Source: Candidatus Magasanikiibacteriota bacterium (GTDB lineage Bacteria; Patescibacteriota; Patescibacteriia; Magasanikbacterales; UBA922). Taken from it: 52,442 nt of DNA. The stretch spans positions 1-52,442 of the forward strand of contig CAILTG010000094.1 in assembly GCA_903837125.1 (NCBI GenBank), given 5' to 3'. The position numbers were made by a program, and so were the translations under genes. Under the pieces are notes generated by a model. The model saw only the letters and a program-made list of their open reading frames with translations. It made no database searches and was not told where the DNA came from. This document shows, in pieces, positions 19,114 through 35,716 of this stretch (position 1 is its first letter; the number at the start of each line of letters is the position of its first letter).

Positions 19114-19134
19114 ATAATTTTCAATTTGGAAATT

Positions 19135-21307: not shown

Positions 21308-24300
21308 TTATCTAGGTGATTCGGATTTAGACTCAACCGGTATAACTTTTATACCAATATCCTTATCAAAACCAATAACAGCTGGCACTGGTTTCCCGTC
21401 TCCAATTTTCATTAATAACTGACCACGGTCATCTTTGGAGTAAGTATTATGCTCATCTGCCACAAAATATTCTTTGCCCTGAATTTCAACTTTTATGCCA
21501 TGACTGCCATTAACCACAATACCAACACCTACTACGGGTTGCACAACCAATTGTCCCTCCGGAGACAAAGTTTTATAAAATTGATCTAACAAAGCACTGG
21601 AAGTTTTAGGAACTACCGGTGGTTTAAAATTTATCAATTTCTGCCTTATATCTTCCACAAGACCAGCTGCTTTATCCCCACTAACTTTCACACCATTCAA
21701 ACGACCATTTAACTCATTTTGTGCCGCAACCGAAACAGGATTAACTTCTGGAGTTGGAACAACTTCTCCCGCTTTCGTTGCTTCTGATATTTTAACAGCT
21801 TTGGCACTTATACTCTTTGTTTCTTTTACTTTTGGTTCGGTACTATCACCTTTTTTAGCAACAACAGCATCTGTCGCCCCCTCAGTACTTTTTGATTCAG
21901 TTCCAGTCCCAACAGTTGCTATTTTGGCAGGAGTTGGTATTTCTGTACGCCCAGTTCCACCGCCACTTTTTGTGGGGGGCACAACAGTCTCTGTTCCCGG
22001 AACCCTTATTCCTATACCACCGCCACCAATATGTCTTTCTCCACCACCAACTCCACCACCGCTTCCGCCACCACCACCTCCATGTCCCATACCTGTTGGG
22101 GCGTGTGCTAAAGCCTCAAGAGCAGCGGCAGCAGCCTTACCTGCACCTTTAAAAGTCATTTTATGAGGAAAAGCTGGTGGTAATTTAGAAAAATCAGTAG
22201 AAAAAGCTTTGTTTACATCTCCGCCAGGAGGCGAAGTGTAGTAGCCAATTAAGGCATGGGTACTATTATCATAAACAGCCACCACTGCTCCGGTGGTGCC
22301 ATCTGGCATTTCAAATCCAATTTTGGCTGTCAATATATCTGAACCACCTGGTTGACCAATACCACGACCCAAAATTGGTTTAGAAACAGACAATATTTTT
22401 CCCTCAGGATTAACTTTTGCTTCTGTTGCTGCTTCATGAACTGGCACGTGAACTCGGTGCGCTGATCCGTGTTCAATTATTGGTTGACCTTTTTCATCTA
22501 AACCAAGATAATGAGCATTTTCACCTTTAGCATAAAGATCATGCCCACCACCTACTAAACCTTTATTAAACAAATCTGTATCAACTTGCGCTTTAAGACT
22601 TTCATACAATCCATGAACCATAGCTGAAACTTCTTTGGTTGGCTTCCCCCCTCTAGTGGCATGAATTACTGTTTTCAAATAATTTTCAGCAAAACTTTTA
22701 AAATCTCTAGGCTTGCTTAAATGCAAACTCTGTTCAGCCAAACCATGAATTTTTAATTCATTTTGTAAAAAATGAGCCGCTCCAGCAGTATCGCCTTCCC
22801 TGAGCAAGGCTTCAAAAGTTACCATTTCCCGTTGCGCTCCAGCGTGAGTAATAGTACTTACTTGACCTTTCAAAATATCTGCATGAATATCTGAACCACC
22901 ACCTCTAACTTCTGAAGCATGATAAATCTCCTCAAGATCTGAAATCTCAAGTTTAGGATAGGTTTTTAATAAAGTAGCAAAATAATCAGAACCTTTATTA
23001 CTTAAACCAGCTGGAATATCATTTGCCCTATCATCAACTGCTACTTCCGGAACAGCGGCTTCAGCTTCTACACCAGCGCTACCACCTCCAGACGGTTGAT
23101 GAATAACATTTGAAGCTTCTGATTCACTTATAGTTGAAACTGGCACAGTTGACTCTACATCAACACCACCATTATCAACATTAGGCGCTTCCACATTATG
23201 ACCAGTCGCAGAATCGTCTGCTTCTACGGAAACAACATTACCAGCAGTTGGTTCAACAGCTTGATCTGAAACCGCTTCTACTGCATTATTACCACCAGCA
23301 ACAGGAGTACTTGCTTCAACAGTATGAGCTTCAACATTTGGAGTATTACCTCTAGTTGACACAACAGCCTGAACTGTTGACTGTTCAACTGCGATTGTAC
23401 CATCAGCAGTAAACCGTACAACGTGACCTGTGGCTGCCCCAGCCGCTTTGAAACCAGTTTCTGCTGTTTGTGGAGCGCCGCCACCATGAAATTTATCCCA
23501 AATTTTACCTATTGATGCAGTTGGATGAGAATAAAACCCAATCATCCGTTCACAATTATCTACAAAATTCTTTCCCAAAGAAGCCAGAATTTGATCCCAA
23601 TTTTTATCAGTAAAATTATCAGTTATTTTACCAACCATCTCATGCATTCCTTCATATCCGCCGGCCGCCACACCAAAAATACCAACTGATCGCATAATTG
23701 CTCCCACATTTTGCATTACCGACATACCTACCTCTAGTTTACTTTTTTTCCAGCGATCTTTTAATTTTACTTCTTTATCCTTTGACCAAAGACCAAAACT
23801 AGCTGTTTCCATGAAAGCATTATATGTTATATCCTTAAGATAATGCATGTTCGCTTCTTTTTGTGTAGCACCCTCCAGTTTTTTTTGTTTCTTTTCTGCG
23901 TTAGCTTTACGTGCCCGTTCTGCAATTGCTCCCAAACCATAAATTGCACCTCTTAAAGCGATTGCTCCAGTACCAACCAAAGCCAAACTGGCAGCATCTT
24001 TGAAAATACTCATGCCTGAAACTTTTTTCACTAAATAAGCTTCTACTGCTTCATTTATTTTGGCATCACGTTCTGTTCTACCCACAGTTGTTTCTTTTCT
24101 ATATTGATCAATAATTTCATCAATTCGCTTTAACAATTTTTCTTTCATTTCCGGCACCAAATACTCAGCTGAATTTATTTTATCTTTTAGCAGATCAATT
24201 CTAGTATCAGCATAAATTTCCGTATGCTTTACATCCGGACCGGCATTCCAAGCAACTTTTTGAGCTTCAATAAATTCTTTTAGAGCTGCTTTTATTTGTT

Positions 24301-26542
24301 CTATTTCTTTTCCACCCTGAACATTGGCATAAATATCACCTTTACCAACTGTATATAACAACGCGTCACCAACAATTTTAACGCCAAACATCTGGCCAAC
24401 CGTTTTATTGGCGAAGTCTACAGTACCCAAAGGACCCAAAGAAACCGCTGCTTCCCCTGCTCTTTTAAGTAAACCCTTCTTTTCCTCAGACTTAGGTGAT
24501 GGAGTGCCAGTATTCAATTCTTTGACATTCTTTTTAAATTCATCAACAAAAAAACCTTCAAAACATGCATCTAATCCGGCAAATTGCGGTTTTCCACCCG
24601 TTAAACTGTGCAGATGAATTCGTATTCTTTCCAAATCCTCCTGACCATTTGTTCTTGTCGTATAAGTGGCCAAAGCTTTTTCACCAAACACTTTCCAAAA
24701 ATTTATAAATTGTTTTCTACTTGATTCATATTTCTTTCCAACTCCAAATAATTTACCAAGCTTCCCCGGTTGTTTCTGTTCATTAAAATATGAATAAGCC
24801 TTTACCATTATATCTAACGACCCAAACAAACTTTCATCAAAAAATTGCCTTTTTTCGGCTTCATCACTTGGTTTATAAGCCCGAGCGAAAACATTGGAAA
24901 AAGACAATTCTTCCCTAGAAAAACGCGCGTCTGTGTCTTTATTTTCTGATGTATTTTTTGATTCATCTGTGCTTTCTGATTCATCTGCTTCTTCCGTTTT
25001 ACCAGACATTATTTTTAAGGCCTCACCACAAGAGTCAATTACATTACCGCCTCTGATAGGAATAGTGATGCGCCATCCACTTTCATCACTCATATCTACT
25101 CTCACTTCCCCTTCCAAAACAAAAACCAACTTCTTGGTTATTAATGGATCAATAGTAGGATATTTAATCAATTCTTGAAAATCCGCAGAGCAAGTCTCAA
25201 TTACATCCAAGTCTGCCGTAGTACAATCACCTTCAAACATAAGAGAAAAAAGATAATCAGGATTTTCTCTAACCAATTTATTAAATCTTGCCTTTTTAGT
25301 CACCAAATCAATGGCTTCTATACAAGAACTTTCAAGCCCGCCACCATTCATAGGCAAATTTATCTCTGTACCGCCTGGTTTTTCATGTATAAAAACTGAC
25401 GCTCCTGCCGGTACAAAAACCAAAGTATTTTTTACGCCTGGTTGAATCTCGGTGTCTATTAATAATTTCAACTTTTCAGAATTGCTTTCCACTGCATCCA
25501 AATCTTCTTTAAGATAACTGTCCAATTTAGCAGGTAGAAAAGTATACTTAGGATTTTCTCTAACTAATTTATTAATTATGGCTAATTTGGGAATCCTTTC
25601 TGCTTCTTTATTGTCCAATTTTTTTTCTACCACGTCCTTTTTATCTAGAGGTTTACCATCTTTATTATAAAAACTCCAAAGTTTTACCTGCCAGTCATCA
25701 TCCTCCAAATTAATTCTAACATCATTTTGTTTTGGGACAAATGTTGAACCCTGCAAAAAAAATTCTCCACCAAGACTATAAGTAGCGACAATTTCTGCCA
25801 ATTTCAAAATCCTAGCCTGTATTTTAGCCACTTCATTATCGGTTTTTGCTTTAAAAGCATAATCATGACACATTTTTATTTTTCCAGAATCAGGTAAAAA
25901 TCCTTCCACTCTTTTTCTAATGCAATATTTTTCTGCTAAATCTTCAAACTTTCTTTCCCATCCAGTTTCCTCAATATTTAACTGAATTTTTCCTTGATCA
26001 ATTTTACTTTCTATTTGCTCACCCGCGATACCCACCTTCACTGGAAAACTAAATTTTTTTATTAAACGCTTAAGCTGATCAACCCGTAATTTTAATTCAC
26101 CAAGTGATAAAGAAAAACCAACATCTTTGGCATATTCAAAAACAGACAAACTAATATCTTCTCCAACACAATTTTTTAATTGATCCTGCAATTCTTTCTT
26201 TTCCTCTTCTGTTGTTGCTGCTTTTGTCTCATTTTTTTCTCCTCCAGTTGTTTCTTTTCCAAGCTGTTCGGCTAACTCATGCAATTCATTCATTAATTCA
26301 GCCATTTCTTCCAATTCTTTATACACACGTCCAGCTTCACCAGGACTAACTTCACCAAATTGGTCTACAAGTTTTTGTACCATATCTTCCAAACTTTTAA
26401 TTTTATTCTCATGACTTGCAAGTTTACCCCTAACTTTTTCCAAAACAGGACTAAGTTGGTTATACCACTCTCTTAATTTAAAATTTTTCTCAACGTCTGG
26501 GTTATGGCTACGGTCAACAATGTATTTCTTGAATTCTGACAT
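21308..26542 (-). CDS. 1,744-aa orphan protein (coiled coil, internal repeats, hydrophobic helices, Gly/Ala-rich tail)
   Basis: uninterrupted 5.2-kb ORF; no recognisable catalytic motif. Confidence 0.85.
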   Translation of the reverse strand: MSEFKKYIVDRSHNPDVEKNFKLREWYNQLSPVLEKVRGKLASHENKIKSLEDMVQKLVDQFGEVSPGEAGRVYKELEEMAELMNELHELAEQLGKETTGGEKNETKAATTEEEKKELQDQLKNCVGEDISLSVFEYAKDVGFSLSLGELKLRVDQLKRLIKKFSFPVKVGIAGEQIESKIDQGKIQLNIEETGWERKFEDLAEKYCIRKRVEGFLPDSGKIKMCHDYAFKAKTDNEVAKIQARILKLAEIVATYSLGGEFFLQGSTFVPKQNDVRINLEDDDWQVKLWSFYNKDGKPLDKKDVVEKKLDNKEAERIPKLAIINKLVRENPKYTFLPAKLDSYLKEDLDAVESNSEKLKLLIDTEIQPGVKNTLVFVPAGASVFIHEKPGGTEINLPMNGGGLESSCIEAIDLVTKKARFNKLVRENPDYLFSLMFEGDCTTADLDVIETCSADFQELIKYPTIDPLITKKLVFVLEGEVRVDMSDESGWRITIPIRGGNVIDSCGEALKIMSGKTEEADESESTDESKNTSENKDTDARFSREELSFSNVFARAYKPSDEAEKRQFFDESLFGSLDIMVKAYSYFNEQKQPGKLGKLFGVGKKYESSRKQFINFWKVFGEKALATYTTRTNGQEDLERIRIHLHSLTGGKPQFAGLDACFEGFFVDEFKKNVKELNTGTPSPKSEEKKGLLKRAGEAAVSLGPLGTVDFANKTVGQMFGVKIVGDALLYTVGKGDIYANVQGGKEIEQIKAALKEFIEAQKVAWNAGPDVKHTEIYADTRIDLLKDKINSAEYLVPEMKEKLLKRIDEIIDQYRKETTVGRTERDAKINEAVEAYLVKKVSGMSIFKDAASLALVGTGAIALRGAIYGLGAIAERARKANAEKKQKKLEGATQKEANMHYLKDITYNAFMETASFGLWSKDKEVKLKDRWKKSKLEVGMSVMQNVGAIMRSVGIFGVAAGGYEGMHEMVGKITDNFTDKNWDQILASLGKNFVDNCERMIGFYSHPTASIGKIWDKFHGGGAPQTAETGFKAAGAATGHVVRFTADGTIAVEQSTVQAVVSTRGNTPNVEAHTVEASTPVAGGNNAVEAVSDQAVEPTAGNVVSVEADDSATGHNVEAPNVDNGGVDVESTVPVSTISESEASNVIHQPSGGGSAGVEAEAAVPEVAVDDRANDIPAGLSNKGSDYFATLLKTYPKLEISDLEEIYHASEVRGGGSDIHADILKGQVSTITHAGAQREMVTFEALLREGDTAGAAHFLQNELKIHGLAEQSLHLSKPRDFKSFAENYLKTVIHATRGGKPTKEVSAMVHGLYESLKAQVDTDLFNKGLVGGGHDLYAKGENAHYLGLDEKGQPIIEHGSAHRVHVPVHEAATEAKVNPEGKILSVSKPILGRGIGQPGGSDILTAKIGFEMPDGTTGAVVAVYDNSTHALIGYYTSPPGGDVNKAFSTDFSKLPPAFPHKMTFKGAGKAAAAALEALAHAPTGMGHGGGGGGSGGGVGGGERHIGGGGIGIRVPGTETVVPPTKSGGGTGRTEIPTPAKIATVGTGTESKSTEGATDAVVAKKGDSTEPKVKETKSISAKAVKISEATKAGEVVPTPEVNPVSVAAQNELNGRLNGVKVSGDKAAGLVEDIRQKLINFKPPVVPKTSSALLDQFYKTLSPEGQLVVQPVVGVGIVVNGSHGIKVEIQGKEYFVADEHNTYSKDDRGQLLMKIGDGKPVPAVIGFDKDIGIKVIPVESKSESPR

Positions 26543-26543
26543 A

Positions 26544-26738
26544 TTATTTTTTGGTTATTTTTCGTAAAACAGCTTTAATTTTTTGCTTATCTTCCAAACC
26601 AGTCAACTGGACTTGCAGTTTATTTTCAATTTTTTCCAATTTTTCCAAACGCTTGTCAATTTTATTCAGTAAAACCAAAATACGTTGCTTTTTAGCCTCT
26701 TCTGCCACAGCTTGATTATTGGTTTTAGATTTATTCAT
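26544..26738 (-). CDS. small basic coiled-coil protein
   Basis: 64 aa, stop 1 nt before the giant gene start. Confidence 0.65.
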   Translation of the reverse strand: MNKSKTNNQAVAEEAKKQRILVLLNKIDKRLEKLEKIENKLQVQLTGLEDKQKIKAVLRKITKK

Positions 26739-26749
26739 AATGATTTTTG

Positions 26750-27073
26750 TTATTTTAATTGTGCGGCAATCTCATCTAAAGCTTTGTCCATTTTAGCTTG
26801 GGCTGTTTTAATTTGAGTATTATAGTCAGCTTTAATTTGCATTAGTTCAGCAATAAAATCCCGATCCAAATCACTGGTTTTTTCTCTTAAATAAGCATCT
26901 TCAAAAACATTATGCAAATGCTGTAATTGTTCATAACTTAAACTGGGCAAAACCGCCACAAAACCTTGCTTTTCATCATCAGTTAAATTGAGGGACATGA
27001 TAAACAGCCCCAACTTACGACCCAAAAGTATGGCCTCTTCTTCGGTGGCTTGATTATTGTTAGTCTTAGCCAT
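26750..27073 (-). CDS. small helical hypothetical protein
   Basis: 107 aa, first gene of an apparent three-gene operon. Confidence 0.7.
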   Translation of the reverse strand: MAKTNNNQATEEEAILLGRKLGLFIMSLNLTDDEKQGFVAVLPSLSYEQLQHLHNVFEDAYLREKTSDLDRDFIAELMQIKADYNTQIKTAQAKMDKALDEIAAQLK

Positions 27074-27166: not shown

Positions 27167-27197
27167 AAAAAAACCGCCCTGATTACCAAACGGTTTC
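27167..27197 (-). terminator. intrinsic terminator after the displaced secA tail
   Basis: AAACCG...CGGTTT stem with T7 tract on the minus strand. Confidence 0.6.
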
Positions 27198-27218
27198 TTT
27201 ATTTTTATTGATTATTAT

Positions 27219-27252
27219 TCAGGCCCCATGACATTTCTTAAAGTATTAGTTT
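27219..27252 (-). repeat. distal attachment site (attR-like) carrying a secA 3' tail, KKCHGA-TGA
   Basis: minus strand AAACTAATACTT-TAAGAAATGTCATGG-GGCCTGA; 14/15 to the secA core, 25/27 to the 31458-31484 site. Confidence 0.85.
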
Positions 27253-29113
27253 ATTCAGCCGAACCAGCAACAAATTGACTATTGTACAATGACGCATAAA
27301 AACCGTTTTTAACCAGCAAATCTCTATGATTTCCTTGTTCAACGATATTGCCGTCATTCATTACTAAAATTAAATCAGCGTTGCGAATAGTTGAAAGACG
27401 ATGAGCAATGACAAAACTGGTTTTGCCTTTCATCAGATTATCCATGGCTTTCTGGATCAAAAGTTCAGTCCGTGTATCAACCGAACTTGTTGCCTCGTCC
27501 AAAATCAACATTGAGGTTTTGATCAGCATCGCTCTCGCTATAGTCAATAATTGTTTCTCGCCTTGGGAAATATTATCTGCCTCTTCGTTTAATTTTAAAT
27601 CATAACCCTGAGGTAAGGAATGTATGAAATGATCGGCATGAGCAGCTCTGGCAGCAACGAACACCTCTTCATCAGTGGCATCTGGTTTGCCATAAGCAAT
27701 ATTTTCACGGATTGTACCATTAAACAGCCAAGTATCCTGCAAAACCATACCAAACGATTTTCGAACATCTGAACGTTTCAGGTCGCGAATGTCAACGCCA
27801 TCAATTTTAATCGCACCCTGGTTCACATCATAAAATCTCATTAATAAATTCACTATTGTCGTTTTACCCGCACCGGTCGGGCCGACAATGGCAATTCTTT
27901 GACCCGGTTTAATGCTAGCATTAAAATTTTTAATAATAACCTTGCTTTTGTCATAACCAAAAACCACATTAGCAAAATCTACTCTGCCTTTTATAACTTC
28001 CGACACTGCAGTTTTATCATTTTCAACACTTTCTTCTTTCTCACCTAAAAATTCAAAGACTCGCTCAGCTGCAGCGGCTGTTGATTGCATCACATTGGCA
28101 ATATTAGCTGATTGGATGATAGGTTGATTAAATTGATTAACATACTGAATAAAGGCCTGAATATCACCAATTCGTATTTTACCATTAATCGCCAGCCAGC
28201 CACCAAACACTGATACTCCCACAAAACCCAAATTACCAACAAAAGTCATAATTGGCATCATCAACCCAGACAAAAACTGCGATTTCCAAGCACTGCCAAA
28301 AAGTTTGGTATTTATTTTTTGAAATTTTTGTACTGACCTCGCTTCACCATTAAACACTCTCATCACATTATGACCAGCATACATTTCTTCAATATGACCA
28401 TTAAGTTCGCCAAGAGAGTCTTGTTGTTCTTTAAAATAGTGTTGTGATTTCTTAACAATCAGAGTAATTAAAACAAAACTAAGCGGAACCAGAATTAATG
28501 AAACTATCGTCATCTGCCAAGAGATAGAAAACATCATGGCTAAAATTCCAATAATCATGGTAACCGAGGTGACAATTTGCGTTAAACTTTGATTTAGAGT
28601 TTGGCTCACAGTATCAACATCATTGGTCACCCGCGATAAAACCTCGCCAAAAGTTCTCTTATCAAAATACGCTAAAGGCAAACGATTAATTTTTTCAGAA
28701 ATATCGCGACGAAATTGATAGGTAATTTTTTGTGTAACACCAGTCATAATCCAGCCCTGAATATAACTAAAAATGGCACTTAAAATGTAAAGAGCCAAGA
28801 GTTCAATAGCAAAATATTCTAACTTACCAAAATCTACATGTGTTTTTATTATTACTAGATCGCTCACAATCTGGTTGGTCATATTGCCAAGAATCTTCGG
28901 ACTGACTATGGCAAAAATCGTACTGGCAATGGCAAAAATAAAAACAAAAATTATTGATACCCAAAATGGTTTAGTATATGAAACTAGTTTTTTCATGGTA
29001 GCGGAAAAATTCTTTGGCTTTTCTACCAGTCCCATTCCCACTCTACCCGGCCCCATTGGCAACGGTGATTTGGGTGGGGTTTTGCTCGATTGTAATTTAG
29101 GATTTTCACTCAT
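27251..29113 (-). CDS. ABC exporter fused permease/ATPase (TM288-like, consensus half)
   Basis: TMD + GPTGAGKT, ISQGEKQ, LILDEATSSVD, IAHRL; start at MSENP. Confidence 0.93.
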   Translation of the reverse strand: MSENPKLQSSKTPPKSPLPMGPGRVGMGLVEKPKNFSATMKKLVSYTKPFWVSIIFVFIFAIASTIFAIVSPKILGNMTNQIVSDLVIIKTHVDFGKLEYFAIELLALYILSAIFSYIQGWIMTGVTQKITYQFRRDISEKINRLPLAYFDKRTFGEVLSRVTNDVDTVSQTLNQSLTQIVTSVTMIIGILAMMFSISWQMTIVSLILVPLSFVLITLIVKKSQHYFKEQQDSLGELNGHIEEMYAGHNVMRVFNGEARSVQKFQKINTKLFGSAWKSQFLSGLMMPIMTFVGNLGFVGVSVFGGWLAINGKIRIGDIQAFIQYVNQFNQPIIQSANIANVMQSTAAAAERVFEFLGEKEESVENDKTAVSEVIKGRVDFANVVFGYDKSKVIIKNFNASIKPGQRIAIVGPTGAGKTTIVNLLMRFYDVNQGAIKIDGVDIRDLKRSDVRKSFGMVLQDTWLFNGTIRENIAYGKPDATDEEVFVAARAAHADHFIHSLPQGYDLKLNEEADNISQGEKQLLTIARAMLIKTSMLILDEATSSVDTRTELLIQKAMDNLMKGKTSFVIAHRLSTIRNADLILVMNDGNIVEQGNHRDLLVKNGFYASLYNSQFVAGSAE

Positions 29114-29114
29114 A

Positions 29115-30899
29115 TTAAACCTCTTTTTTATCAATTTTAGATCTATCTTGATCAATATTAATTTGATAATCTTTTAATTCATTCGGAGAAAGTTGTGAAT
29201 AAGCAATCTCGCGGTAGACATCACAGCTTTTTAACAACATCTCATGAGTTCCCTCGCCCACAATTTTGCCATCATCTAGCACAATTATTTTGTCTGCCGA
29301 TAAAATAGTGGAAATTCTTTGTGCCACAATCAACACAGTTTTATCTTTCGTTTCAGATTTTAAAGCTCCTCGAAGCGTCGCATCCGTTTTAAAATCAAGG
29401 GCCGAAAAACTGTCATCAAAAATATAAACTTCCGGTTTCCTGATAATCGCCCGCGCAATTGAAAGTCGTTGTTTTTGACCACCAGAAATGTTGGCTCCGC
29501 CCTCAGCAATTGGCGCATAAAATTTTCCTGGAAGATTATTGATAAATTCTTCGGCTTGTGAAATTTTAGAAAAATATTTTACCTCATTATCGGTCGCCTG
29601 GGGCGCACCGTATTTAACATTTGATTCTACTGTCCCGGAAAATAACACGCTTTTTTGAGGCACATAACCAATCTTCTCATAAAGATCTTCAAGCTGATAC
29701 TCACGCACATCAATACCATCCAATAAAATTTTTCCCGTAGTAACATCATAAAACCGCGGGATTAAATTTATCAGAGTCGATTTGCCGGAACCGGTTGAAC
29801 CAATAAACGCCGTTGTTTCGCCAGAATTCGCTTTGAAAGAAATATTTTCTAGCACAGACGTATCTGCGCCAGGATAACAAAAAGTAACATTTTTAAATTC
29901 AACTACCCCACCGTGGATATTTTTAGTAAAAATTGGTTTTTCAGGATCCTTAATAAGCGGGTCGGTTTCAATTACTTCAATGACTCGTTCAGCGGAAACC
30001 GAGGCGCGTGGCACTAAAATAAAAACCATTGAAATCATTAAAAACGCCATAATTACTTGCATTGCATATTGCATAAAGGCAATCATGTTGCCGATTTCCA
30101 AATTACCCGAGCTAATTAAATGTGCTCCCAGCCAAACAATTAATACCGATGTTAAATTCAAAATCAACATCATTACTGGTTGCATCACCACCATCAGTCT
30201 GTTTACAAAAAGATTCGCTCCCGTTAAATCAACATTGGCTTTTTCAAATTTTGCCTGTTCAAGTTTTTCGTTATTAAAAGCACGAATAACGCGCAGGCCA
30301 GTCAAATTTTCTCGCGTGACCAGATTTAATCGATCAACTAATTTTTGTAATAATTTAAATTTTGGTAAAGCTACTGCAAACATTACAAAAATCACTCCGA
30401 GCAATACCGCAACAGCGAGAGCAATAACCCACGAAAGTGAGGGTGCTAAATTGTAAGCCTTAAAAATTGCCCAAAGTCCCATTATGGGAGCCTGCAAAAC
30501 CATTCTTAAGAGCAGCACCATAACTGTTTGAATTTGTTGGATGTCATTGGTTGAACGAGTGATTAGTGAGGCAGTTGAAAATTTGTTGAATTCCACCAGC
30601 GAAAAACTTTCCACGCGAGAAAAAACTTGATTTCTAATGTCGCGACTAAAACCGGTAGCAATCTTGGAAGCTAAATAACCGACGCCGATGGTACAGACGG
30701 CACCGCCCAGAGCAATGAGGAGCATCCACAACCCATTATAAAAAATGAAACTATTATTTGACTGAACAATTCCCTCGTTAATAATTTTGGCCATATAATC
30801 CGGCAATTGAAGAGTTGCTGCCACGGTGCCAAAAACCAAAGCAATCAGTAAGATCATTTGTAAAGTGTATGGTTTTAAATATTTTATAAGCTTAAACAT
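29115..30899 (-). CDS. ABC exporter fused permease/ATPase (TM287-like, degenerate half)
   Basis: TMD + GSTGSGKS, ISGGQKQR, degenerate FDDSFSALD and VAQR. Confidence 0.93.
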   Translation of the reverse strand: MFKLIKYLKPYTLQMILLIALVFGTVAATLQLPDYMAKIINEGIVQSNNSFIFYNGLWMLLIALGGAVCTIGVGYLASKIATGFSRDIRNQVFSRVESFSLVEFNKFSTASLITRSTNDIQQIQTVMVLLLRMVLQAPIMGLWAIFKAYNLAPSLSWVIALAVAVLLGVIFVMFAVALPKFKLLQKLVDRLNLVTRENLTGLRVIRAFNNEKLEQAKFEKANVDLTGANLFVNRLMVVMQPVMMLILNLTSVLIVWLGAHLISSGNLEIGNMIAFMQYAMQVIMAFLMISMVFILVPRASVSAERVIEVIETDPLIKDPEKPIFTKNIHGGVVEFKNVTFCYPGADTSVLENISFKANSGETTAFIGSTGSGKSTLINLIPRFYDVTTGKILLDGIDVREYQLEDLYEKIGYVPQKSVLFSGTVESNVKYGAPQATDNEVKYFSKISQAEEFINNLPGKFYAPIAEGGANISGGQKQRLSIARAIIRKPEVYIFDDSFSALDFKTDATLRGALKSETKDKTVLIVAQRISTILSADKIIVLDDGKIVGEGTHEMLLKSCDVYREIAYSQLSPNELKDYQINIDQDRSKIDKKEV

Positions 30900-30904
30900 A
30901 ATTG

Positions 30905-31342
30905 TTATTTAACACACCCTCTAAAATCGGACATTTTTTTAATCAAACGGATTAAATCTTTCGTGTCTTTTTCTCCCAAAAAATTTACCAACATTTGGGT
31001 TTTTTTGGTAAATTCATTTTTTAATTTTAACACTTGTACCTGCCCTTTTTTTGTTAGTTCAATTAAAGTAACTCTGCGATCATTTTTGTCGGATAAACGA
31101 TTAAGCAAACCCTGTTTTTCCATGGCATTTATTTGGTGAGTTACAGCCGCCAAAGTAACACATGTCTTCTCAGCTATTTCGGACATAGTAACCGGCTGAC
31201 CGCTTTTTAATTCATAAATCAAAAACAAGATGTGTTTCTCGGCACCCTTTAATTTTGTGTGATTGTGCTGCAAGGCCATAGTTCGTTTAAACTGGCTCAT
31301 CACATTTTGTAGCTCAAAAACTATTTTTTTAGCTGTTTGCAT
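30905..31342 (-). CDS. MarR family transcriptional regulator
   Basis: wHTH, MSEIAE...AAVT..IN.ME..GL..R...DRRVTLIELT.KG. Confidence 0.92.
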   Translation of the reverse strand: MQTAKKIVFELQNVMSQFKRTMALQHNHTKLKGAEKHILFLIYELKSGQPVTMSEIAEKTCVTLAAVTHQINAMEKQGLLNRLSDKNDRRVTLIELTKKGQVQVLKLKNEFTKKTQMLVNFLGEKDTKDLIRLIKKMSDFRGCVK

Positions 31343-31362
31343 ATTATTTACTTAATAAATAG

Positions 31363-31403
31363 TTTACTAAGTAAAGTATATAACAAGTAAAATAATTTGT
31401 CAA
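31363..31403 (-). promoter_or_regulatory. marR promoter with palindromic operator
   Basis: TTGACA - 17 bp - TATACT; TTTACT-A-AGTAAA palindrome (31363-31375) overlapping the -10/+1 region. Confidence 0.7.
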
Positions 31404-31417
31404 TACACTAAAAAATT

Positions 31418-31445
31418 AAAAAAGAGCCCTGGTAGGACTCTTTTT
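31418..31445. terminator. intrinsic terminator after the internal secA tail
   Basis: AAAAAAGAGCCCT-ggt-AGGACTCTTTTT. Confidence 0.75.
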
Positions 31446-31447
31446 GC

Positions 31448-31484
31448 CTAAACATTACCATGACACTTCTTAAAGTGTTAGTTT
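31448..31484 (-). repeat. internal attachment site carrying an alternative secA tail, KKCHGNV-TAG
   Basis: minus strand AAACTAACACTT-TAAGAAGTGTCATGG-TAATGTTTAG; 15/15 to the secA core; ACACT-N6-AGTGT dyad. Confidence 0.87.
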
Positions 31485-31502
31485 AATATATAAGCAGACT
31501 TG

Positions 31503-32744
31503 CTATTTAACAATAATATTGTTCACAAAATTTCCAACCAATAATTTAATTTTCTCAATATTTTCCTTATCCATTACCATATAGCTATATTTTTGTCCGT
31601 CAAAGGTGGTAATTTTAAAATTTAATTTGTTCAAAATTATTTCCTTAATATTATCATAAGCAATTTCATAGGCAACCGGTACTGAGCTTAAAAATTGAGG
31701 TAAACCACTATTTAATAATTCCATACCCTTTTTTTCAATTTCTTTTCGATTAAAGAAAAAATTGGTTGGACTATAGGCCACGCCATCCACAACATTTGAT
31801 CCGCCGGTCACTGGCACCTCAACCATTAATAATCTTTTTGATGTTATAATTAGCGAATTTTCCGATTTAGTAGTTTTGCCGACACCTAAAACCGACCAGG
31901 TTTGAGTTTTTAAATTCATGATTCCAAAAATAGTACCTAACACGCTTTCATCATTATAACTCTTTAATTCCGGCTTAGGTTGGTTAGAAGTTGCAATGCC
32001 AGTCGCCGACAAATCAACAGCAGAAATTCGTTTTATCTCCTTGATACTCAAGACCAGTATAATAAGGGCAAATCCACCAAAAATAGATAAGACTGCAACA
32101 GCCATTGACCAAGCCCCAAGATGAATACTAAATAAGATAAAAGCTAATAAAAATATAAAAAACCAAGGAAAAAAATTTATCATCTCTAACTTTTTTTGGA
32201 TAATGGCGGCTTGCTGATTAATCTCCGCTAAATTTTTATTCTCATCTAGATTCTGGAACAATCTATATCTTATATACTTTAAACACAAATTAATCAGGTT
32301 ATAAAAAACAAACAAATAGATAAACCAATTTATCGAAAAAATGAAATTAAATGATTTAATTAAATTGCTATAAAAAAATAAAATTAGGGTGGCGGTAATA
32401 AAATGAGCTGCCAACCCAATTCCCGCCTGCATTAAATCATAATACTCTCGGACCAAAATAAATCTCTTAATACTGGCATTGGCTAATTGGCTGAGCGTTT
32501 TTATTTTCACATATTTTACAACACCAAATGACAGCTGTAAAACTATTTCCAGACCAAAAATAAATCCAACAATTAGTAGTGGGATGCCAAAGTATTTTTG
32601 GATTAGATAACCAAGAATAATTAAAAACAGCAGATTCTTAAAAACATTAGCCAGTTTAAAAGTTTCAACTGTATATTCTGTTTTGACGGCAAAAGTAGTT
32701 AAGTTTGAGTCCTTATTAAAGGGATTAGGAAAAAAATTAGACAT
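31503..32744 (-). CDS. multi-TM membrane protein with soluble C-terminal domain, unknown function
   Basis: about six hydrophobic segments then a beta-rich soluble domain (LIITSKRLLMV...EIAYDNIKEI). Confidence 0.8.
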   Translation of the reverse strand: MSNFFPNPFNKDSNLTTFAVKTEYTVETFKLANVFKNLLFLIILGYLIQKYFGIPLLIVGFIFGLEIVLQLSFGVVKYVKIKTLSQLANASIKRFILVREYYDLMQAGIGLAAHFITATLILFFYSNLIKSFNFIFSINWFIYLFVFYNLINLCLKYIRYRLFQNLDENKNLAEINQQAAIIQKKLEMINFFPWFFIFLLAFILFSIHLGAWSMAVAVLSIFGGFALIILVLSIKEIKRISAVDLSATGIATSNQPKPELKSYNDESVLGTIFGIMNLKTQTWSVLGVGKTTKSENSLIITSKRLLMVEVPVTGGSNVVDGVAYSPTNFFFNRKEIEKKGMELLNSGLPQFLSSVPVAYEIAYDNIKEIILNKLNFKITTFDGQKYSYMVMDKENIEKIKLLVGNFVNNIIVK

Positions 32745-32806
32745 AATGCGAAGTCAAATATTCTTTACTTATTATTTTCCATTAAATCTACATCTCACAA
32801 AAAATC

Positions 32807-35716
32807 TTACGCTCCATGACACTTCTTATACTTCTTCCCGCTCCCGCACGGACATAAATCATTTCGTCCAACTTTATGTCCGGAATCATCACGCGGTTTC
32901 CCTTCAAACTGTCCAACTTCTACTGCAGATTTTTCCGCACCTTTTAAAACTAATTTATCATTGGCCATAATGGTTGGCGCCAATTGCAAACCTACGCCCA
33001 CTTTATAAAAAGAATATACCACTTCTTTTTGAATACCGGCCAAAAGTTCATTGAACATTTTATAAGTTTCTTTTTTATATTCTACCAACGGATCACGCTG
33101 ACCATAACCACGTAAACCAATACCTGTGCGCAAATAATCTACGGCCACCAAATGATCTACCCACAGGGCATCTATAGAACGAAGTAAAATTCCTTTTTCA
33201 ATAGCTCGCACCATGAATTTTCCTTCAGCTGGATTTTGGCTAGCAGAAATAATTTGATTTTCTACTTTATCATATTCACGTTCAGCTTTTTCTAATAAAT
33301 ATTTAACTAAAGCATCACGCACAGTTACATCATCCAATTTACTATTGCCGTTTCTGGTAAAATGTAAAATTTCCTCGCGCTCGGTTTGTGAAAGCGGAAA
33401 AATTGTTCTAATGGTTTCAAAAATTTCTTGCAAATTCCATTCAGTTTTTGATTCAGTATTAGTGTGAAAAGATACTACCATTTCCAATTCCTGTTCAATC
33501 ATTTCCAAAATCATTTCTTTTAAAGAACTAAATTTCTTACTCCAATCATTCGGCCTCTCTTCTGGCACATCTCTTTCCAAATCCTCAATACTCAAATTAT
33601 CACCAACCTTAGTATTTACGTTATCATTTTTTTCTATAGTCTGTGGTCCATAGTCTATAGTCTGTTTTTTCTCCGCCAAATCCAAAATTTGTCTTCTTTT
33701 TCCATAAATTACCTCACGATGACGATTCAATACATCATCATATTCTAATAAATGCTTTCTAGTATCAAAATGAAAACCTTCCACTTTTTTCTGCGCGCCT
33801 TCCAACATTTTAGTTATCATGCGCTGTTCAATTGGCATATCTTCAGGCACATTCAATCTAGTCATTAATGATTTTATTCTGTCACCCGCAAAAATACGCA
33901 TTAAATCATCTTCGCAAGAAACAAAAAATTGAGTTTCACCAGGATCCCCCTGACGCGCCGCTCGACCACGCAACTGGTTATCAATACGTCGCGCTTCATG
34001 ACGTTCAGTACCCAAAACAAACAAACCACCAGCTTGTTTTACCATTTCTGCTTCAGTTTCAATAATAGGATTACCGCCCAATTTAATATCCACACCACGA
34101 CCGGCCATGTTGGTGGCCAAAGTAATTGCTCCTGGCCGTCCAGCTTGAGCAATAATTTCTGCTTCACGTTCATGATTCTTAGCATTCAAAATTTCGTGTT
34201 TAATACCTTCACGTACCAAATACTCACTCAATTCCTCATTTTTTTCTACTGAAATAGTACCAATCAACATTGGCTGTTTTTTTACTTGGCATTCCTTAAT
34301 TTTTTCTCCAATGGCCTTAAACTTACCCCGCTCATTTTTATAAATCCGATCTGGATGGTCAAATCTACAATCTTGCCGATTAGTAGGAATGGTTACTACT
34401 TCTAAATGATAAATTTTCCAAAACTCTTCTATTTCAGTAAAAGCTGTACCAGTCATACCAGATAATTTTCCATACATGCGAAATAAATTCTGGAAAGTAA
34501 TTGTGGCCAAAGTTTGACTTTCCTTTTGTATTTCTACTCCTTCTTTGGCTTCTATAGCCTGATGCAAACCTTCGGAATAACGACGACCAGGCATTTTACG
34601 TCCGGTAAATTCATCAATAATCAACACTTCATTATTTTCTACCATGTAATCCTTATCACGCTTAAATAGCACTTCTGCTTTTAGAGCCTGCTCCACATGA
34701 TGCACCAAACGCACACCACCTTCTACATAAAGATTTTCAATGCCCAGCCATTTTTCAAATTTAGCAATACCTTCTTCGGTTAAACTGGTCGTACGCATTT
34801 TTTCATCCAAATTATAATCTCCTTGCCCCGCAGGATCTTTGGCATCTTTTTCTTTTAACTGACGAATTAGTTTCGCAAATTGATAATATTGTTCATTAGC
34901 ATCTTCTGCGGGAGCGGAAATTATTAGTGGAGTTCTGGCTTCATCAATTAAAATTGAATCTACTTCATCCACAATTGCAAAATTCATTTCATTCCCCGGA
35001 CGCATTACCATTTCATTAATAGTCTGCACCATGTTATCGCGCAAATAATCAAAACCATATTCATTATTGGTGCCATAAGTAATATCAGCACGGTAAGCTT
35101 CTTGACGAGAGCAGGGACGAATAAAATCTTCGTCAATCTTAAAACTCTCCTGTTCACTTTCAATTTTTAATTCATTACTATCTGTTAGCTGTTGACTGCC
35201 ATCTAATTTTCTGGCCGTGGCATCATAAATATATGAAACCCGCATATTCTGAATAATACCAACACTCATTCCTAAATAATCATAAATTTTTGCCATCCAA
35301 ATAGCATCACGTTTAGCCAAATAATCATTCACAGTAACCAAATGTACACCTTTGCCTTCCAGAGCATTTAAATAAATTGGTAAAGTGGCCACCAAAGTTT
35401 TTCCTTCACCAGTGCGCATTTCCGAAATTCCCCCGCGATGCAAGACTACACCACCAACCATTTGGACATCAAAATGACGCATACCGGTGGTGCGTTTAGA
35501 GGCTTCACGAACTGTAGCGAAAGCTTCTGGTAATAAATCATCCAAAGTTTCACCTTTAGCCAAGCGATTTTTAAAATCCTGAGTTTTATTTTTTAATTCT
35601 TCATCAGTCAATTTTTGCCAGGCTGGCTCCAAAGAATTAATTTTAAGAACAATTGGTTGAATTTCCCGAATAGTTTTTTTATTGGTATCACCAAATAATT
35701 TAGTTAGAAAAGACAT
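32807..35716 (-). CDS. secA: preprotein translocase ATPase SecA
   Basis: EMRTGEGKT, VTVNDYLA, DEVDSILIDEARTPLIIS, ATNMAGRG, C-terminal SEC-C GRNDLCPCGSGKKYKKCH. Confidence 0.99.
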   Translation of the reverse strand: MSFLTKLFGDTNKKTIREIQPIVLKINSLEPAWQKLTDEELKNKTQDFKNRLAKGETLDDLLPEAFATVREASKRTTGMRHFDVQMVGGVVLHRGGISEMRTGEGKTLVATLPIYLNALEGKGVHLVTVNDYLAKRDAIWMAKIYDYLGMSVGIIQNMRVSYIYDATARKLDGSQQLTDSNELKIESEQESFKIDEDFIRPCSRQEAYRADITYGTNNEYGFDYLRDNMVQTINEMVMRPGNEMNFAIVDEVDSILIDEARTPLIISAPAEDANEQYYQFAKLIRQLKEKDAKDPAGQGDYNLDEKMRTTSLTEEGIAKFEKWLGIENLYVEGGVRLVHHVEQALKAEVLFKRDKDYMVENNEVLIIDEFTGRKMPGRRYSEGLHQAIEAKEGVEIQKESQTLATITFQNLFRMYGKLSGMTGTAFTEIEEFWKIYHLEVVTIPTNRQDCRFDHPDRIYKNERGKFKAIGEKIKECQVKKQPMLIGTISVEKNEELSEYLVREGIKHEILNAKNHEREAEIIAQAGRPGAITLATNMAGRGVDIKLGGNPIIETEAEMVKQAGGLFVLGTERHEARRIDNQLRGRAARQGDPGETQFFVSCEDDLMRIFAGDRIKSLMTRLNVPEDMPIEQRMITKMLEGAQKKVEGFHFDTRKHLLEYDDVLNRHREVIYGKRRQILDLAEKKQTIDYGPQTIEKNDNVNTKVGDNLSIEDLERDVPEERPNDWSKKFSSLKEMILEMIEQELEMVVSFHTNTESKTEWNLQEIFETIRTIFPLSQTEREEILHFTRNGNSKLDDVTVRDALVKYLLEKAEREYDKVENQIISASQNPAEGKFMVRAIEKGILLRSIDALWVDHLVAVDYLRTGIGLRGYGQRDPLVEYKKETYKMFNELLAGIQKEVVYSFYKVGVGLQLAPTIMANDKLVLKGAEKSAVEVGQFEGKPRDDSGHKVGRNDLCPCGSGKKYKKCHGA
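32814..32828 (-). repeat. proximal attachment core inside the secA SEC-C codons
   Basis: TAAGAAGTGTCATGG, repeated at 31458 and 27226. Confidence 0.85.

What the first reader, a model, noticed from the sequence alone, without database searches (positions are those of the whole stretch)
27219..32828. Tandem array of integrase-less gene cassettes at the secA 3' end, each supplying a replacement SecA C-terminus
Seen: the 15-bp core TAAGAAGTGTCATGG in the last secA codons (32814-32828) recurs at 31458-31472 (15/15) and 27226-27240 (14/15). In secA frame the copies read KKCHGA-TAA, KKCHGNV-TAG and KKCHGA-TGA, and the two downstream tails are each followed by a terminator. Both downstream copies share a 12-bp arm absent from secA (AAACTAAYACTT), which in the internal copy forms an ACACT-N6-AGTGT dyad. 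The units are 1,356 and 4,232 bp, cargo stop codons lie within 0-18 bp of the arm, and neither unit encodes a recombinase. Established: tyrosine-recombinase islands restore the 3' end of target genes and can accrete in tandem. Inference: minimal integron-like cassettes mobilised in trans that use SEC-C-coding DNA as attB, with 27219-27240 as the original secA end. I do not know of a described system with this target.
Basis: partly seen in the sequence, partly recalled or inferred. Interest (0 to 1): 0.9.

Follow-up and report, generated by a model that had tools for sequence, protein, structure and literature searches.

The report
Integrase-less gene units at secA's end
Two small blocks of foreign genes sit one after the other at the very end of the essential secA gene of a tiny uncultured bacterium, each bounded by a copy of secA's last codons; the same spot is the landing site of a group of phages in related bacteria, so this is an ordinary kind of mobile-DNA scar at a target not reported before.

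Summary
The 15-bp end of secA (32814-32828, minus strand) recurs at 31458-31472 (15/15) and 27226-27240 (14/15). These are the only three such sites in the 1.35-Mb assembly. The two downstream copies share a 28-bp arm+core.

The units carry a 413-aa membrane protein and a MarR plus two-ABC-exporter operon. That operon has 65-86% identical relatives in other Patescibacteria but at most about 37% within its own family. Relatives place secD/secF after secA in 17 of 19 loci; here 11.6 kb intervenes.

The exact arm+core was found nowhere else: 0 of 106 family genomes, one unrelated hit in the species-genome collection, and 0 viral contigs. No empty site or circle could be tested because read depth was 2-6.

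I did find a clade of small phage tyrosine integrases. In 13 of 17 informative loci a mimic of the secA end lies 0.3-1 kb downstream. Three proviruses are fused to a genuine secA end. Other Patescibacteria show integrase-less insertions with displaced secA-end remnants.

Best reading: two integrase-less units added one after another by site-specific recombination at a secA-3' attB. They resemble CIME or pseudo-SCC elements, not integron cassettes. Whether they still move is unknown.

The parts
32807..35716 (-). secA (969 aa), ending CPCGSGKKYKKCHGA-TAA
   Evidence: ORF list. Pfam hits to SecA_DEAD, P-loop_SecA, SecA_SW, SecA_PP_bind and SEC-C. 61-79% identical to SecA of 29 relatives.
32814..32828 (-). 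Core copy 1 (attL-like), inside the last secA codons. The 7 nt after it (32807-32813, codon remainder, Ala, TAA) would be supplied by unit 1.
31503..32744 (-). Unit 1 cargo: a 413-aa multi-pass membrane protein of unknown family. No terminator lies between secA and it.
   Evidence: No Pfam, NCBIfam or PHROG hit. Six homologues in 5.8 billion proteins, the best 75% identical. Atlas scores at most 0.80. Translation.
31458..31485 (-). Arm+core copy 2 (28 bp). It is the junction of unit 1 and unit 2 and contains the ACACTT-N4-AAGTGT dyad.
31419..31457 (-). Tail 2 (reads G-N-V-TAG in the secA frame) plus a strong intrinsic terminator (31419-31445): the left end of unit 2
   Evidence: Terminator scan. 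Fold z -3.2.
31375..31403 (-). Promoter-like site (TTGACA-17-TATACT, 11/12) in front of the MarR gene
   Evidence: This is a consensus match only.
30905..31342 (-). Unit 2 cargo: MarR-family regulator (145 aa)
   Evidence: Pfam MarR, E 1e-12.
29115..30899 (-). Unit 2 cargo: ABC exporter half-transporter (594 aa)
   Evidence: ABC_membrane plus ABC_tran. MsbA-like and SmdA-like hits, below the equivalog cut-offs.
27251..29155 (-). Unit 2 cargo: second ABC exporter half-transporter (634-aa ORF; the database form is 620 aa). Its TAA overlaps the arm.
   Evidence: 68-86% identical homologues in other Patescibacteria. Best full-length match in its own family is 28-37%.
27226..27253 (-). Arm+core copy 3 (28 bp, attR-like)
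27167..27225 (-). Tail 3 (G-A-TGA; stop at 27219-27221), the candidate original secA end, followed by a weak terminator-like hairpin (27167-27200)
   Evidence: The terminator scan did not call it.
21308..27073 (-). Block C: 107-aa, 64-aa and 1,744-aa ORFs without a family. The block is also absent from relatives' secA-secD spacers and is not flanked by repeats.
   Evidence: No tblastn hit in 19 relatives' loci. No boundary repeat.
18199..21195 (-). secD (19135-21195, with PPIase domains) and secF (18199-19113): the genes that follow secA in relatives
   Evidence: Present downstream of secA in 17 of 19 relatives' loci.

Best explanation
The locus is an array built by successive additions. Two integrase-less DNA units (1,356 and 4,232 bp) were inserted one after the other by conservative site-specific recombination, most likely by a tyrosine recombinase. 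The attachment site is the last codons of secA, which encode the SEC-C zinc-finger end (...KKCHG).

Each incoming circle carried a site made of arm + core + tail. Crossing over in the 15-bp core left the unit's tail fused to secA, giving a new G-x-stop. It pushed the arm+core and the previous tail downstream.

If each unit entered at the secA-proximal core, unit 2 (MarR plus two ABC exporters, with its own terminator and promoter) came first. Unit 1 (the membrane protein, probably read through from secA) came later. The reverse order, with the second unit entering the displaced site, is not excluded.

Today the units are what the ICE/IME literature calls CIME-like: att sites are kept and no recombinase is present. 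They could move only with a recombinase supplied by another element.

Shown: the repeats, the arm, the broken synteny, the foreign cargo, and the existence of integrases that use this secA site elsewhere.

Inferred: the recombination itself, the order of events, the identity of the recombinase, and any present-day mobility.
For: 1. Three core copies and two 28-bp arm+core copies occur only at this locus in the genome.

2. The arm is not secA-derived, so the downstream copies are not simple duplications of secA.

3. secD+secF follow secA in 17 of 19 relatives' loci, with gaps of about 55 nt to 4.8 kb. The gap here is 11.6 kb.

4. The unit-2 ABC gene:
- The best full-length match within the family of 107 genomes is 28-37% identical.
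- Other Patescibacteria have homologues at 68-86%.
- 21 of 400 other sampled phylum genomes have a match at E 1e-150 or better, a patchy spread.

5. The same site is a real attachment site elsewhere.
- A scan of IMG/VR for SEC-C-coding DNA gave 35 loci.
- In six of them a roughly 300-aa (298-435 aa) tyrosine integrase (Pfam PF00589) is followed 0.30-0.73 kb downstream, on the same strand, by a degenerate SEC-C mimic, a stop and a terminator. In five of the six an AAA_24/Sak4-type gene follows; the sixth, L198, ends about 100 nt after the mimic.
- In L172 terminase and ParB-methylase genes lie on the other side, so the site sits inside a phage genome.
- The six integrases are one clade, 46-82% identical to each other.
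- Searching that clade back gave 21 loci. Of the 17 with at least 500 nt downstream, 13 have a KKCHG/KKCCG-coding core 0.3-1.0 kb after the integrase. None lies on the other strand or upstream.
- Three proviruses (L189, L190, L205) begin inside a full SEC-C motif in an ORF that runs off their edge, and carry the clade integrase at their other end.

6. Other integrase-less units at the same site:
- L189 is secA|core|phage. In L060 a phage 78-97% identical over the aligned segments lies behind secA|core|two small ORFs|core, and the homology starts exactly at the core.
- L066 has one ORF whose TAA abuts a remnant reading KKYKKCYGA-stop.
- G160 and G366 have a NUDIX gene between a truncated SecA end and a remnant. 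G412 and G310 have a variant SecA tail with a canonical remnant 50-75 nt downstream.

7. The shortest exact repeat (15 bp) is below assembler k-mer sizes, and two Logan contigs bridge the secA/unit-1 junction.
Against: - No recombinase of the phage clade is in G000. Its three Xer-like recombinases are only 20-26% identical to the clade. None is found in 107 family genomes at E 1e-40 or better.
- G000's arms and tails are not significantly similar to the phage att arms or tails beyond the core. They lack the C-x-C-G mimic seen upstream of the phage cores.
- The arm+core is found nowhere else, so there is no second instance of this particular element type.
- None of 21 close homologues of the ABC operon has such a site downstream.
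- No empty site, alternative cargo or circle junction was seen. The only runs holding the sequence are 2-6x contig sets, and no same-genus genome was available.
- GC content of the units (0.30-0.39) is not distinct from the genome's 0.35.
- Block C is also an insertion relative to the family but has no repeats, so not everything in this spacer arrived this way, or its repeats have decayed.
Confidence: 0.65

Rival explanations
1. An active, integron-like cassette system. The units would be minimal cassettes whose arm+core works like an attC. A dedicated recombinase encoded elsewhere would capture them repeatedly at the secA end, and they would still excise as 1,356-, 4,232- and 5,588-bp circles.
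For: - The topology matches an integron array: co-oriented cargo, stop codons 0-18 nt from the site, N+1 cores for N units, and the secA-proximal pair of copies identical 15/15.
- Single- or two-gene units with the cargo stop abutting the remnant also occur in L066, L060 and G160.
- G000 has three tyrosine recombinases. One of them scores 228.5 bits on the integron-integrase subfamily model, below its 265-bit cut-off.
Against: - No IntI-type gene lies next to the array.
- No folded attC-like structure is present: z -1.1 and +0.8 for the two sites, and the dyad is not kept in copy 3.
- The arm+core occurs in 0 of 106 family genomes, gave one unrelated locus in the species-genome collection, and occurs in 0 viral contigs.
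- The recombinase that scores on the integron-integrase subfamily model (C23) is of the roughly 280-aa kind; open frames of about that size with a PF00589 match are frequent among the 61 family genomes searched, which suggests a housekeeping gene.
- Unit 2 carries its own regulator, promoter and terminator.
Confidence: 0.12
2. Xer-dependent elements, like IMEX elements or the pdif modules of Acinetobacter plasmids. The 28-bp arm+core would be a dif-like 11-6-11 site used by the host's own Xer-type recombinases, so no element-borne integrase is needed.
For: - The conserved stretch is exactly 28 bp.
- Copy 2 parses as two 11-bp imperfect inverted arms (7/11 symmetric) around 6 bp. This is my own reading.
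- G000 encodes three Xer/XerA-like recombinases.
Against: - Copy 3's arms are only 4/11 symmetric (reading).
- No other 28-mer within 6 mismatches exists in the assembly, so the site resembles no candidate chromosomal dif. This is limited by a 101-contig MAG.
- The secA copy has no left arm.
- Elsewhere the site is demonstrably linked to a dedicated phage integrase clade, not to Xer.
Confidence: 0.08
3. Decayed prophage or island ends with no cassette logic. One or two full integrative elements of the secA-targeting kind integrated, then lost the integrase and all backbone genes by deletion. The present cargo was acquired secondarily inside the remnants.
For: - Integrase-bearing phages at this site exist.
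- The review passage read (PMC5704250) describes exactly this route to CIMEs.
- Unit 2 starts with a replacement tail plus terminator, as the phage attP right sides do.
Against: - No phage or conjugation gene remnant is present: there are no PHROG hits for the two proteins tested, and ORFs fill the units.
- Deletions would have had to end exactly at the cargo stop codons in both units.
- The arms differ from those of the known phage clade.

This rival differs from the best explanation only in how the units lost or never had an integrase.
Confidence: 0.1
4. No site-specific recombination. The repeats would arise from illegitimate or short-homology recombination on the conserved, A-rich SEC-C codons, from chance, or from an assembly artefact.
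For: - SEC-C codons are conserved between organisms and internally repetitive (AAG AAG TAT AAG AAG).
- One chance-like exact 15-mer lies 4.4 kb downstream of secA in G003, inside an unrelated small ORF.
Against: - 0 of 100 shuffles give 3 copies.
- The shared 13-bp arm is not secA sequence.
- The repeats (15-28 bp) are shorter than assembly k-mers, and independent contigs bridge one junction.
- The same architecture recurs next to a specific integrase clade.
Confidence: 0.05

Closest known systems
CIMEs (cis-mobilizable elements) and ICE/IME accretion arrays at the 3' ends of genes in streptococci. Based on the passage of PMC5704250 read.
   Same: [quoted passage not shown]
- Tandem arrays form by integration of a new element into an att site of a resident one.
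- The target gene's end is restored.
   Different: - The target here is secA's SEC-C codons, not a tRNA gene, fda and the like.
- The host is a Patescibacterium.
- The units are tiny (1.4 and 4.2 kb) and show no decayed backbone genes.
- No integrase-bearing partner is in the array or the assembly.
- Mobility is untested.
SCC / pseudo-SCC composite islands at the 3' end of rlmH (orfX) in staphylococci. Seen only as search listings and abstracts; the details are recalled.
   Same: - Several elements lie in tandem at the 3' end of a conserved housekeeping gene, separated by short direct repeats of the target's end.
- Some members lack recombinase genes and depend on recombinases supplied in trans.
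   Different: - SCC uses large serine recombinases (Ccr).
- The elements are tens of kb long.
- The repeat sequence and the target gene are unrelated to those here.
Temperate phages of the integrase clade found here (IMG/VR loci L172, L193, L188, L202, L185, L198; proviruses L189, L190, L205)
   Same: - They use the same core, AARAARTGYCAYGG, in the last secA codons.
- They supply a replacement G-x-stop tail plus a terminator.
- They leave a displaced arm+core downstream.
   Different: - They carry a 298-435-aa tyrosine integrase and phage genes. G000's units carry neither.
- Their left arms mimic more of the SEC-C motif (C-x-C-G...KK). G000's arm does not.
Mobile integron cassette arrays
   Same: - Co-oriented compact units, each ending in a recombination site close to the cargo stop codon.
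- Insertion next to a fixed primary site.
- The recombinase is not inside the cassettes.
   Different: - There is no IntI or attI.
- The site is a 28-bp double-strand-type sequence with no attC-like fold.
- The primary site is inside an essential gene.
- There are only two units, and the site type is not seen elsewhere.
Integrase-less small islands flanked by direct repeats, such as the microcin H47 island of E. coli (PMC3191183; abstract seen in the listing)
   Same: [quoted passage not shown]
   Different: - My recollection, not taken from the abstract, is that this island lacks its own integrase and depends on recombination functions supplied in trans.
- It has a different host, target and repeats, and excision was shown experimentally there.

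Membership tests
CIME-like / integrase-less element in an accretion array | [quoted passage not shown] | tested here: met
   Three cores, two with a shared arm. The secA frame is closed after each core.
CIME-like / integrase-less element in an accretion array | No integration or transfer genes inside the element | tested here: met
   Four ORFs fill the units and none hits a recombinase, relaxase or phage family. No PF00589 or PF00239 match on the contig.
CIME-like / integrase-less element in an accretion array | Integrase-bearing elements with the same site specificity exist | tested here: met
   A phage integrase clade lies next to SEC-C-coding cores in 13 of 17 informative loci, and proviruses are fused to secA ends. 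This holds in other organisms only; none was found in G000 or its family.
CIME-like / integrase-less element in an accretion array | Derived from a decayed ICE, IME or prophage; can be excised or mobilised by a partner | not testable with these tools
   No backbone remnants are present. The reads were 2-6x contigs, with no joints at the cores.
Mobile integron | IntI integrase gene with attI next to the array | tested here: not met
   No tyrosine recombinase on the 52-kb contig. The three in the genome are Xer/XerA-like and lie on other contigs.
Mobile integron | attC sites: imperfect palindromes that fold as single strands, a structure shared by all cassettes | tested here: not met
   A 6-bp hairpin occurs in copy 2 only, and the folds are no better than shuffles.
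Mobile integron | The same site type recurs with different cargo in other arrays | tested here: not met
   0 of 106 family genomes, 1 unrelated locus in the species-genome collection, and 0 viral contigs.
Xer-dependent IMEX / pdif module | A 28-bp dif-like site (11-6-11) resembling the host dif | tested here: inconclusive
   The 28-bp length fits and copy 2 is 7/11 symmetric, but copy 3 is 4/11 (reading). No other similar 28-mer (up to 6 mismatches) is in the assembly. The host dif site is unknown.
Xer-dependent IMEX / pdif module | Host XerC/D-type recombinases present | tested here: met
   Three Xer/XerA-like genes.
Prophage of the secA-targeting integrase clade | Clade integrase and phage genes between the att sites | tested here: not met
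   The best G000 matches are 20-26% identical Xer-like genes on other contigs. The cargo has no PHROG hits.
Prophage of the secA-targeting integrase clade | Core AARAARTGYCAYGG at the end of secA, with a replacement tail | tested here: met
   Searches compared.
Prophage of the secA-targeting integrase clade | Left arm that mimics the C-x-C-G...KK part of SEC-C | tested here: not met
   G000's arms score within the null against the phage arms. No YGYGG motif lies upstream.

The most novel reading that the evidence does not exclude
The end of secA may be a general, still active gene-capture site in Patescibacteria. Minimal integrase-less cassettes of one to three genes, each with a recombination site of about 28 bp abutting the cargo stop codon, would be inserted and exchanged at the SEC-C codons. 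The recombinases would be supplied in trans by temperate phages of the clade found here, or by host Xer-like enzymes. This would work as an integron-like system whose primary site is inside an essential gene. G000 (two units), L060, L066 and G160/G366 would be snapshots of it.
Probability: 0.2. Interest if true: 0.8.

Novelty: new member of a known kind. Interest (0 to 1): 0.58.

Why it matters
It adds secA's zinc-finger codons to the list of conserved gene ends used as attachment sites.

It also reveals a coherent clade of small phage integrases with a secA-mimicking attP. The clade has no match among 50,697 deposited phage genomes.

Three practical consequences follow:
- The attP mimic gives a direct host-linking signal for phages of ultra-small uncultured bacteria.
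- A simple integrase plus a conserved roughly 15-30-bp attB in an essential, universally present gene is a candidate genetic tool for Patescibacteria, which lack such tools.
- The secA-secD spacer is a place to look for recently acquired genes in these reduced genomes. Here the acquired genes are a MarR-regulated ABC exporter.

Some insertions (G160/G366) leave SecA without the last zinc ligand. This bears on whether the SEC-C finger is dispensable in these organisms.

Tried and rejected
1. Arm+core elsewhere.
- Family genomes, up to 3 mismatches: 0 of 106.
- GTDB species-genome collection, exact 22-mer pattern: one unrelated gammaproteobacterial contig.
- IMG/VR, 21-mer pattern: 0.

2. Empty sites or other cargo in close kin.
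- No other genome of the genus is held.
- The metagenome scan with the SecA C-terminal 320 aa returned only relatives at 44% identity or less, found through the GKKYKKCH word.

3. Reads. Four lake-water runs are kept only as Logan contigs at depth 2-6. No joints appear at the cores, and the loose ends at 32807/32839 belong to other organisms' SEC-C codons. This says nothing for or against circles or empty sites.

4. A second core in relatives.
- The G003 copy lies inside a small membrane ORF after secF.
- The second 14-mer in genus g64 lies inside an unrelated ORF about 5.9 kb upstream of the secA end, so it is not a displaced secA remnant.
- The G000 C97 hit is inside a transporter gene in another frame.
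- All three are rejected as chance.

5. Unit-2 operon as a travelling cassette. 21 homologous loci have no core or SEC-C remnant downstream; the four 12-mers that match the arm with up to 2 mismatches lack a core.

6. G000 arms and tails against phage att arms and tails: scores within the shuffle null.

7. attC-like folding: not supported.

8. Cargo function of the 413-aa protein: no Pfam, NCBIfam or PHROG hit, and Atlas scores at most 0.80.

9. G005 has no secD within 8.4 kb of secA. That region holds pyrimidine and arginine biosynthesis genes, not an island.

10. L111 and L126 carry a 77-aa ORF with a full SEC-C motif between secA and prfB. I left this as a possible stand-alone gene or displaced SecA tail.

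11. Fetching more of the L060 contig was not possible.

Supplementary files of papers were not consulted.

13. Literature. Four searches for secA as an integration target found nothing relevant. This covers only the held library.

Full report
**What is there.** secA lies on the minus strand at 32807-35716 (969 aa, all SecA domains including SEC-C). Its last codons hold the 15-mer TAAGAAGTGTCATGG at 32814-32828. The same 15-mer recurs at 31458-31472 (15/15) and 27226-27240 (14/15). Chance expectation is 0.09 matches, and 0 of 100 shuffles reach three. In the whole 1.35-Mb, 101-contig, 35% GC assembly, these are the only sites within two mismatches. The window is one whole contig of that assembly.

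The two downstream copies share 28 bp (26/28 identical). This comprises a 13-bp arm that is not secA sequence, followed by the core. In the secA frame the three copies read KKCHGA-TAA, KKCHGNV-TAG and KKCHGA-TGA.

- Unit 1 (1,356 bp) holds one ORF, a 413-aa multi-pass membrane protein with no family.
- Unit 2 (4,232 bp) starts with the GNV-stop tail, a strong terminator and an 11/12 promoter-like site. It then holds a MarR regulator and two ABC half-transporters.
- The cargo stop codons lie 18 nt before the arm (unit 1) and overlap it by 2 nt (unit 2).
- The dyad ACACTT-N4-AAGTGT exists only in the internal copy, and neither site folds better than shuffled sequence.
- The hairpin after copy 3 is weak.

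**Is it an artefact?** The exact repeats are 15 bp, below assembler word sizes. Two independent run-level contigs cover the secA/unit-1 junction without a difference (X1 32770-32986 and X4 32777-33036). No listed piece bridges the other two junctions. The four runs that hold the sequence are from lake-water metagenomes of one study, at depth 2-6. They may include the source sample.

**Context in relatives.** The organism belongs to a family of 0.6-1.4-Mb genomes. Source names attached to close homologues of the cargo place that gene in Patescibacteria.

- In 17 of 19 relatives' loci, secA is followed on the same strand by secD and secF. The other two are a 1.2-kb stub and G005. The gap is about 55 nt to 4.8 kb and holds different small genes in different genera.
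- In the window, secD (19135-21195) starts 11.6 kb after the secA stop.
- No gene in this 11.6-kb stretch (unit 1, unit 2, and a third block with 107-, 64- and 1,744-aa ORFs) has a tblastn match in those 19 loci.
- The second ABC gene has matches in 82 of 107 family genomes at E 1e-30 or better, but the full-length ones are 28-37% identical, which is paralogue level.
- By contrast, it has 68-86% identical homologues in metagenomes, some named Falkowbacteria, Berkelbacteria or Patescibacteria. It also has matches at E 1e-150 or better in 21 of 400 other sampled phylum genomes, in scattered families.
- Unit 2 is therefore a horizontal acquisition. GC content does not set the units apart.

- Same arm+core elsewhere: 0 of 106 family genomes at up to 3 mismatches, one unrelated contig in the species-genome collection, and 0 in IMG/VR.
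- The operon's homologues in 21 other genomes carry no such site.
- Empty sites and circles could not be tested.
- A recombinase next to the site: none on the contig.
- The genome has three Xer/XerA-like tyrosine recombinases (C92, C23, C68) and one serine recombinase (C43) elsewhere. Family genomes carry 1-4 such tyrosine recombinases.

**What changed my reading: the site is a real attachment site in other genomes.** Among 88 secA loci with a recognisable end (19 relatives plus 80 metagenome loci, minus 11 without a recognisable end), 3 have a second SEC-C-coding stretch downstream on the same strand. None has one on the opposite strand or upstream. A local-alignment screen added L066.

A scan of IMG/VR for SEC-C-coding DNA gave 35 loci. 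I examined 12 of them in detail.
- In six (L172, L193, L188, L202, L185, L198), a 298-435-aa tyrosine integrase (PF00589, E 1e-19 to 1e-26) is followed 0.30-0.73 kb downstream, co-oriented, by a degenerate SEC-C mimic such as YCGCGKKFKKCHGS-stop, and then a terminator. In five of the six an AAA_24/Sak4-type gene follows; L198 ends about 100 nt after the mimic.
- In L172 the other side holds a ParB-methyltransferase and a large terminase. The site is therefore an attP inside a phage genome.
- The six integrases are 46-82% identical to each other.
- They have no match in 50,697 deposited phage genomes at E 1e-20.
- Searching the clade back gave 21 loci. Of the 17 with at least 500 nt downstream, 13 have a KKCHG/KKCCG-coding core 0.3-1.0 kb after the integrase, again with none on the other strand or upstream. 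The four others had under 200 nt available.
- In some of these the SEC-C likeness begins only at [YW]KKC, directly after a stop codon (L223, L226, L227). That is as short as in G000.
- Three proviruses (L189, L190, L205) start inside a full GRNDPC.CGSGKKYKKCHG motif in an ORF that runs off their edge, and carry the clade integrase at their opposite end. This is the classical attL...int-attR layout.

**Integrase-less units at the same site elsewhere.**
- L189 reads secA|core|phage. L060 carries a phage 78-97% identical over the aligned segments, but behind secA|core|132-aa ORF|97-aa ORF|core. The homology starts exactly at the core.
- L204 is the same sequence as L060 and is not independent.
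- L060's SecA is 55-62% identical to SecA of sampled Patescibacteria. This is consistent with that phylum, but I ran no outgroup control.
- L066 has a single ORF whose TAA abuts a remnant reading KKYKKCYGA-stop.
- In the 401-genome phylum sample, only G000 has two or more exact 17-mers near each other on one strand.
- However, the hits in G160/G366, G412 and G310 are displaced remnants, not the secA ORF end. In G160, SecA ends KKYKKC-GLLNTVEHQSNMVKK-stop (losing the His ligand), then comes a NUDIX gene, then a remnant SGKKYKKCHGK. In G412 and G310, SecA ends with a variant tail, and a canonical remnant follows 50-75 nt later.
- I compared positions only for the genomes listed in both. 'At least four of 400' is therefore a lower bound.
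- The 97-aa ORF of L060 has a 41% identical homologue (E 6e-27) between secA and secD in G012, a member of G000's family, there without repeats. It may be a travelling cargo or an old neighbour of secA; I cannot tell which.

**Mechanism.** The simplest account is conservative site-specific recombination in the core. A circle carrying arm-core-tail recombines with the secA end. This gives secA-core-tail(unit)...arm-core-previous tail. Two rounds give the observed three cores, two arms and three tails.

The small phage integrases found here have only a SAM-like N-terminal domain and the catalytic domain. This fits short, simple sites (inference).

G000's own arm and tails are not significantly like those of that clade. 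No clade member is in G000 or in 107 family genomes. The enzyme that made this array is therefore unidentified. It could be a different integrase with the same target, or a host Xer-like enzyme. The latter is suggested by the 28-bp length and an 11-6-11 parse of copy 2, but copy 3 is poorly symmetric and nothing else in the assembly resembles the site.

The integron comparison fails on IntI, attC folding and recurrence of the site. The description that fits is a CIME-like array: elements that kept their att sites but have no integration genes, stacked by integration into an att site at the end of a target gene (passage of PMC5704250). The same idea applies to pseudo-SCC elements at rlmH (listing and abstracts only; the details are recalled).

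**Novelty and limits.** The class of phenomenon is known. I could not find the following in print in four searches of the held library:
- secA's SEC-C codons as a target;
- the phage integrase clade tied to it;
- small integrase-less units at this site in Patescibacteria.

Noticed in passing
window 19135-21195 (-): The SecD ORF (686 aa) carries PpiC-type PPIase (rotamase) domains at about residues 245-360, within its periplasmic part. The same long form (52-65% identical over about 670 aa) is found in relatives.
   Followed up: partly
window 21308-26542 (-): A 1,744-aa ORF with no Pfam or NCBIfam family is preceded by two small coiled-coil-like ORFs (107 and 64 aa). This block also interrupts the secA-secD neighbourhood but has no flanking repeats.
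   Followed up: partly
L213/L214 (G160:C8:7200-10500; G366:C3:2440-5800): In two species of one genus, SecA ends KKYKKC-GLLNTVEHQSNMVKK-stop, so it lacks the final His-Gly of the zinc finger. A NUDIX gene follows, and then a displaced remnant SGKKYKKCHGK.
   Followed up: partly
L215 (G412:C3:32500-35500), L216 (G310:C6:6800-10000): In two unrelated families, SecA ends with a variant zinc-finger tail (CGAT.PDG..MKYKHCHGK). A canonical remnant, DGSGKKYKKCHG[AK]-stop, lies only 50-75 nt downstream.
   Followed up: partly
L111 5746-5979, L126 (about 1 kb after secA): A 77-aa ORF with a complete SEC-C motif ([21 protein letters not shown]) lies between secA and prfB in two high-GC metagenome contigs. 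It could be a displaced SecA tail or a stand-alone small SEC-C protein.
   Followed up: no
L196, L197 (IMG/VR): In L196 a 402-aa integrase with an arm-binding domain (a different type) lies next to a 72-75-aa ORF that ends in a full SEC-C motif at the contig edge. L197 has the same kind of ORF at its edge, but no integrase was examined there. This is possibly a second, unrelated integrase family using a SEC-C-coding site.
   Followed up: no
G000 contig C68:4488-11776: The third tyrosine recombinase (297 aa) lies close to a 644-aa ATPase-like ORF and a 764-aa ORF that look like defence genes, judged by their N-terminal sequences only. This is possibly a small island.
   Followed up: no
L046 (G005:C6:1-8450): In this relative (81% complete), secA is followed by pyrimidine and arginine biosynthesis genes instead of secD. 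This is unusual for such reduced genomes and may be a rearrangement or a binning error.
   Followed up: no
L066 11319-12383: A Fic-domain-like protein (with the HPFxDGNGR motif) lies directly after the displaced secA remnant.
   Followed up: no
window 17408-17773 (-): A 23S rRNA intervening-sequence protein family gene (PF05635) lies about 425 nt downstream of secF (18199-19113).
   Followed up: no
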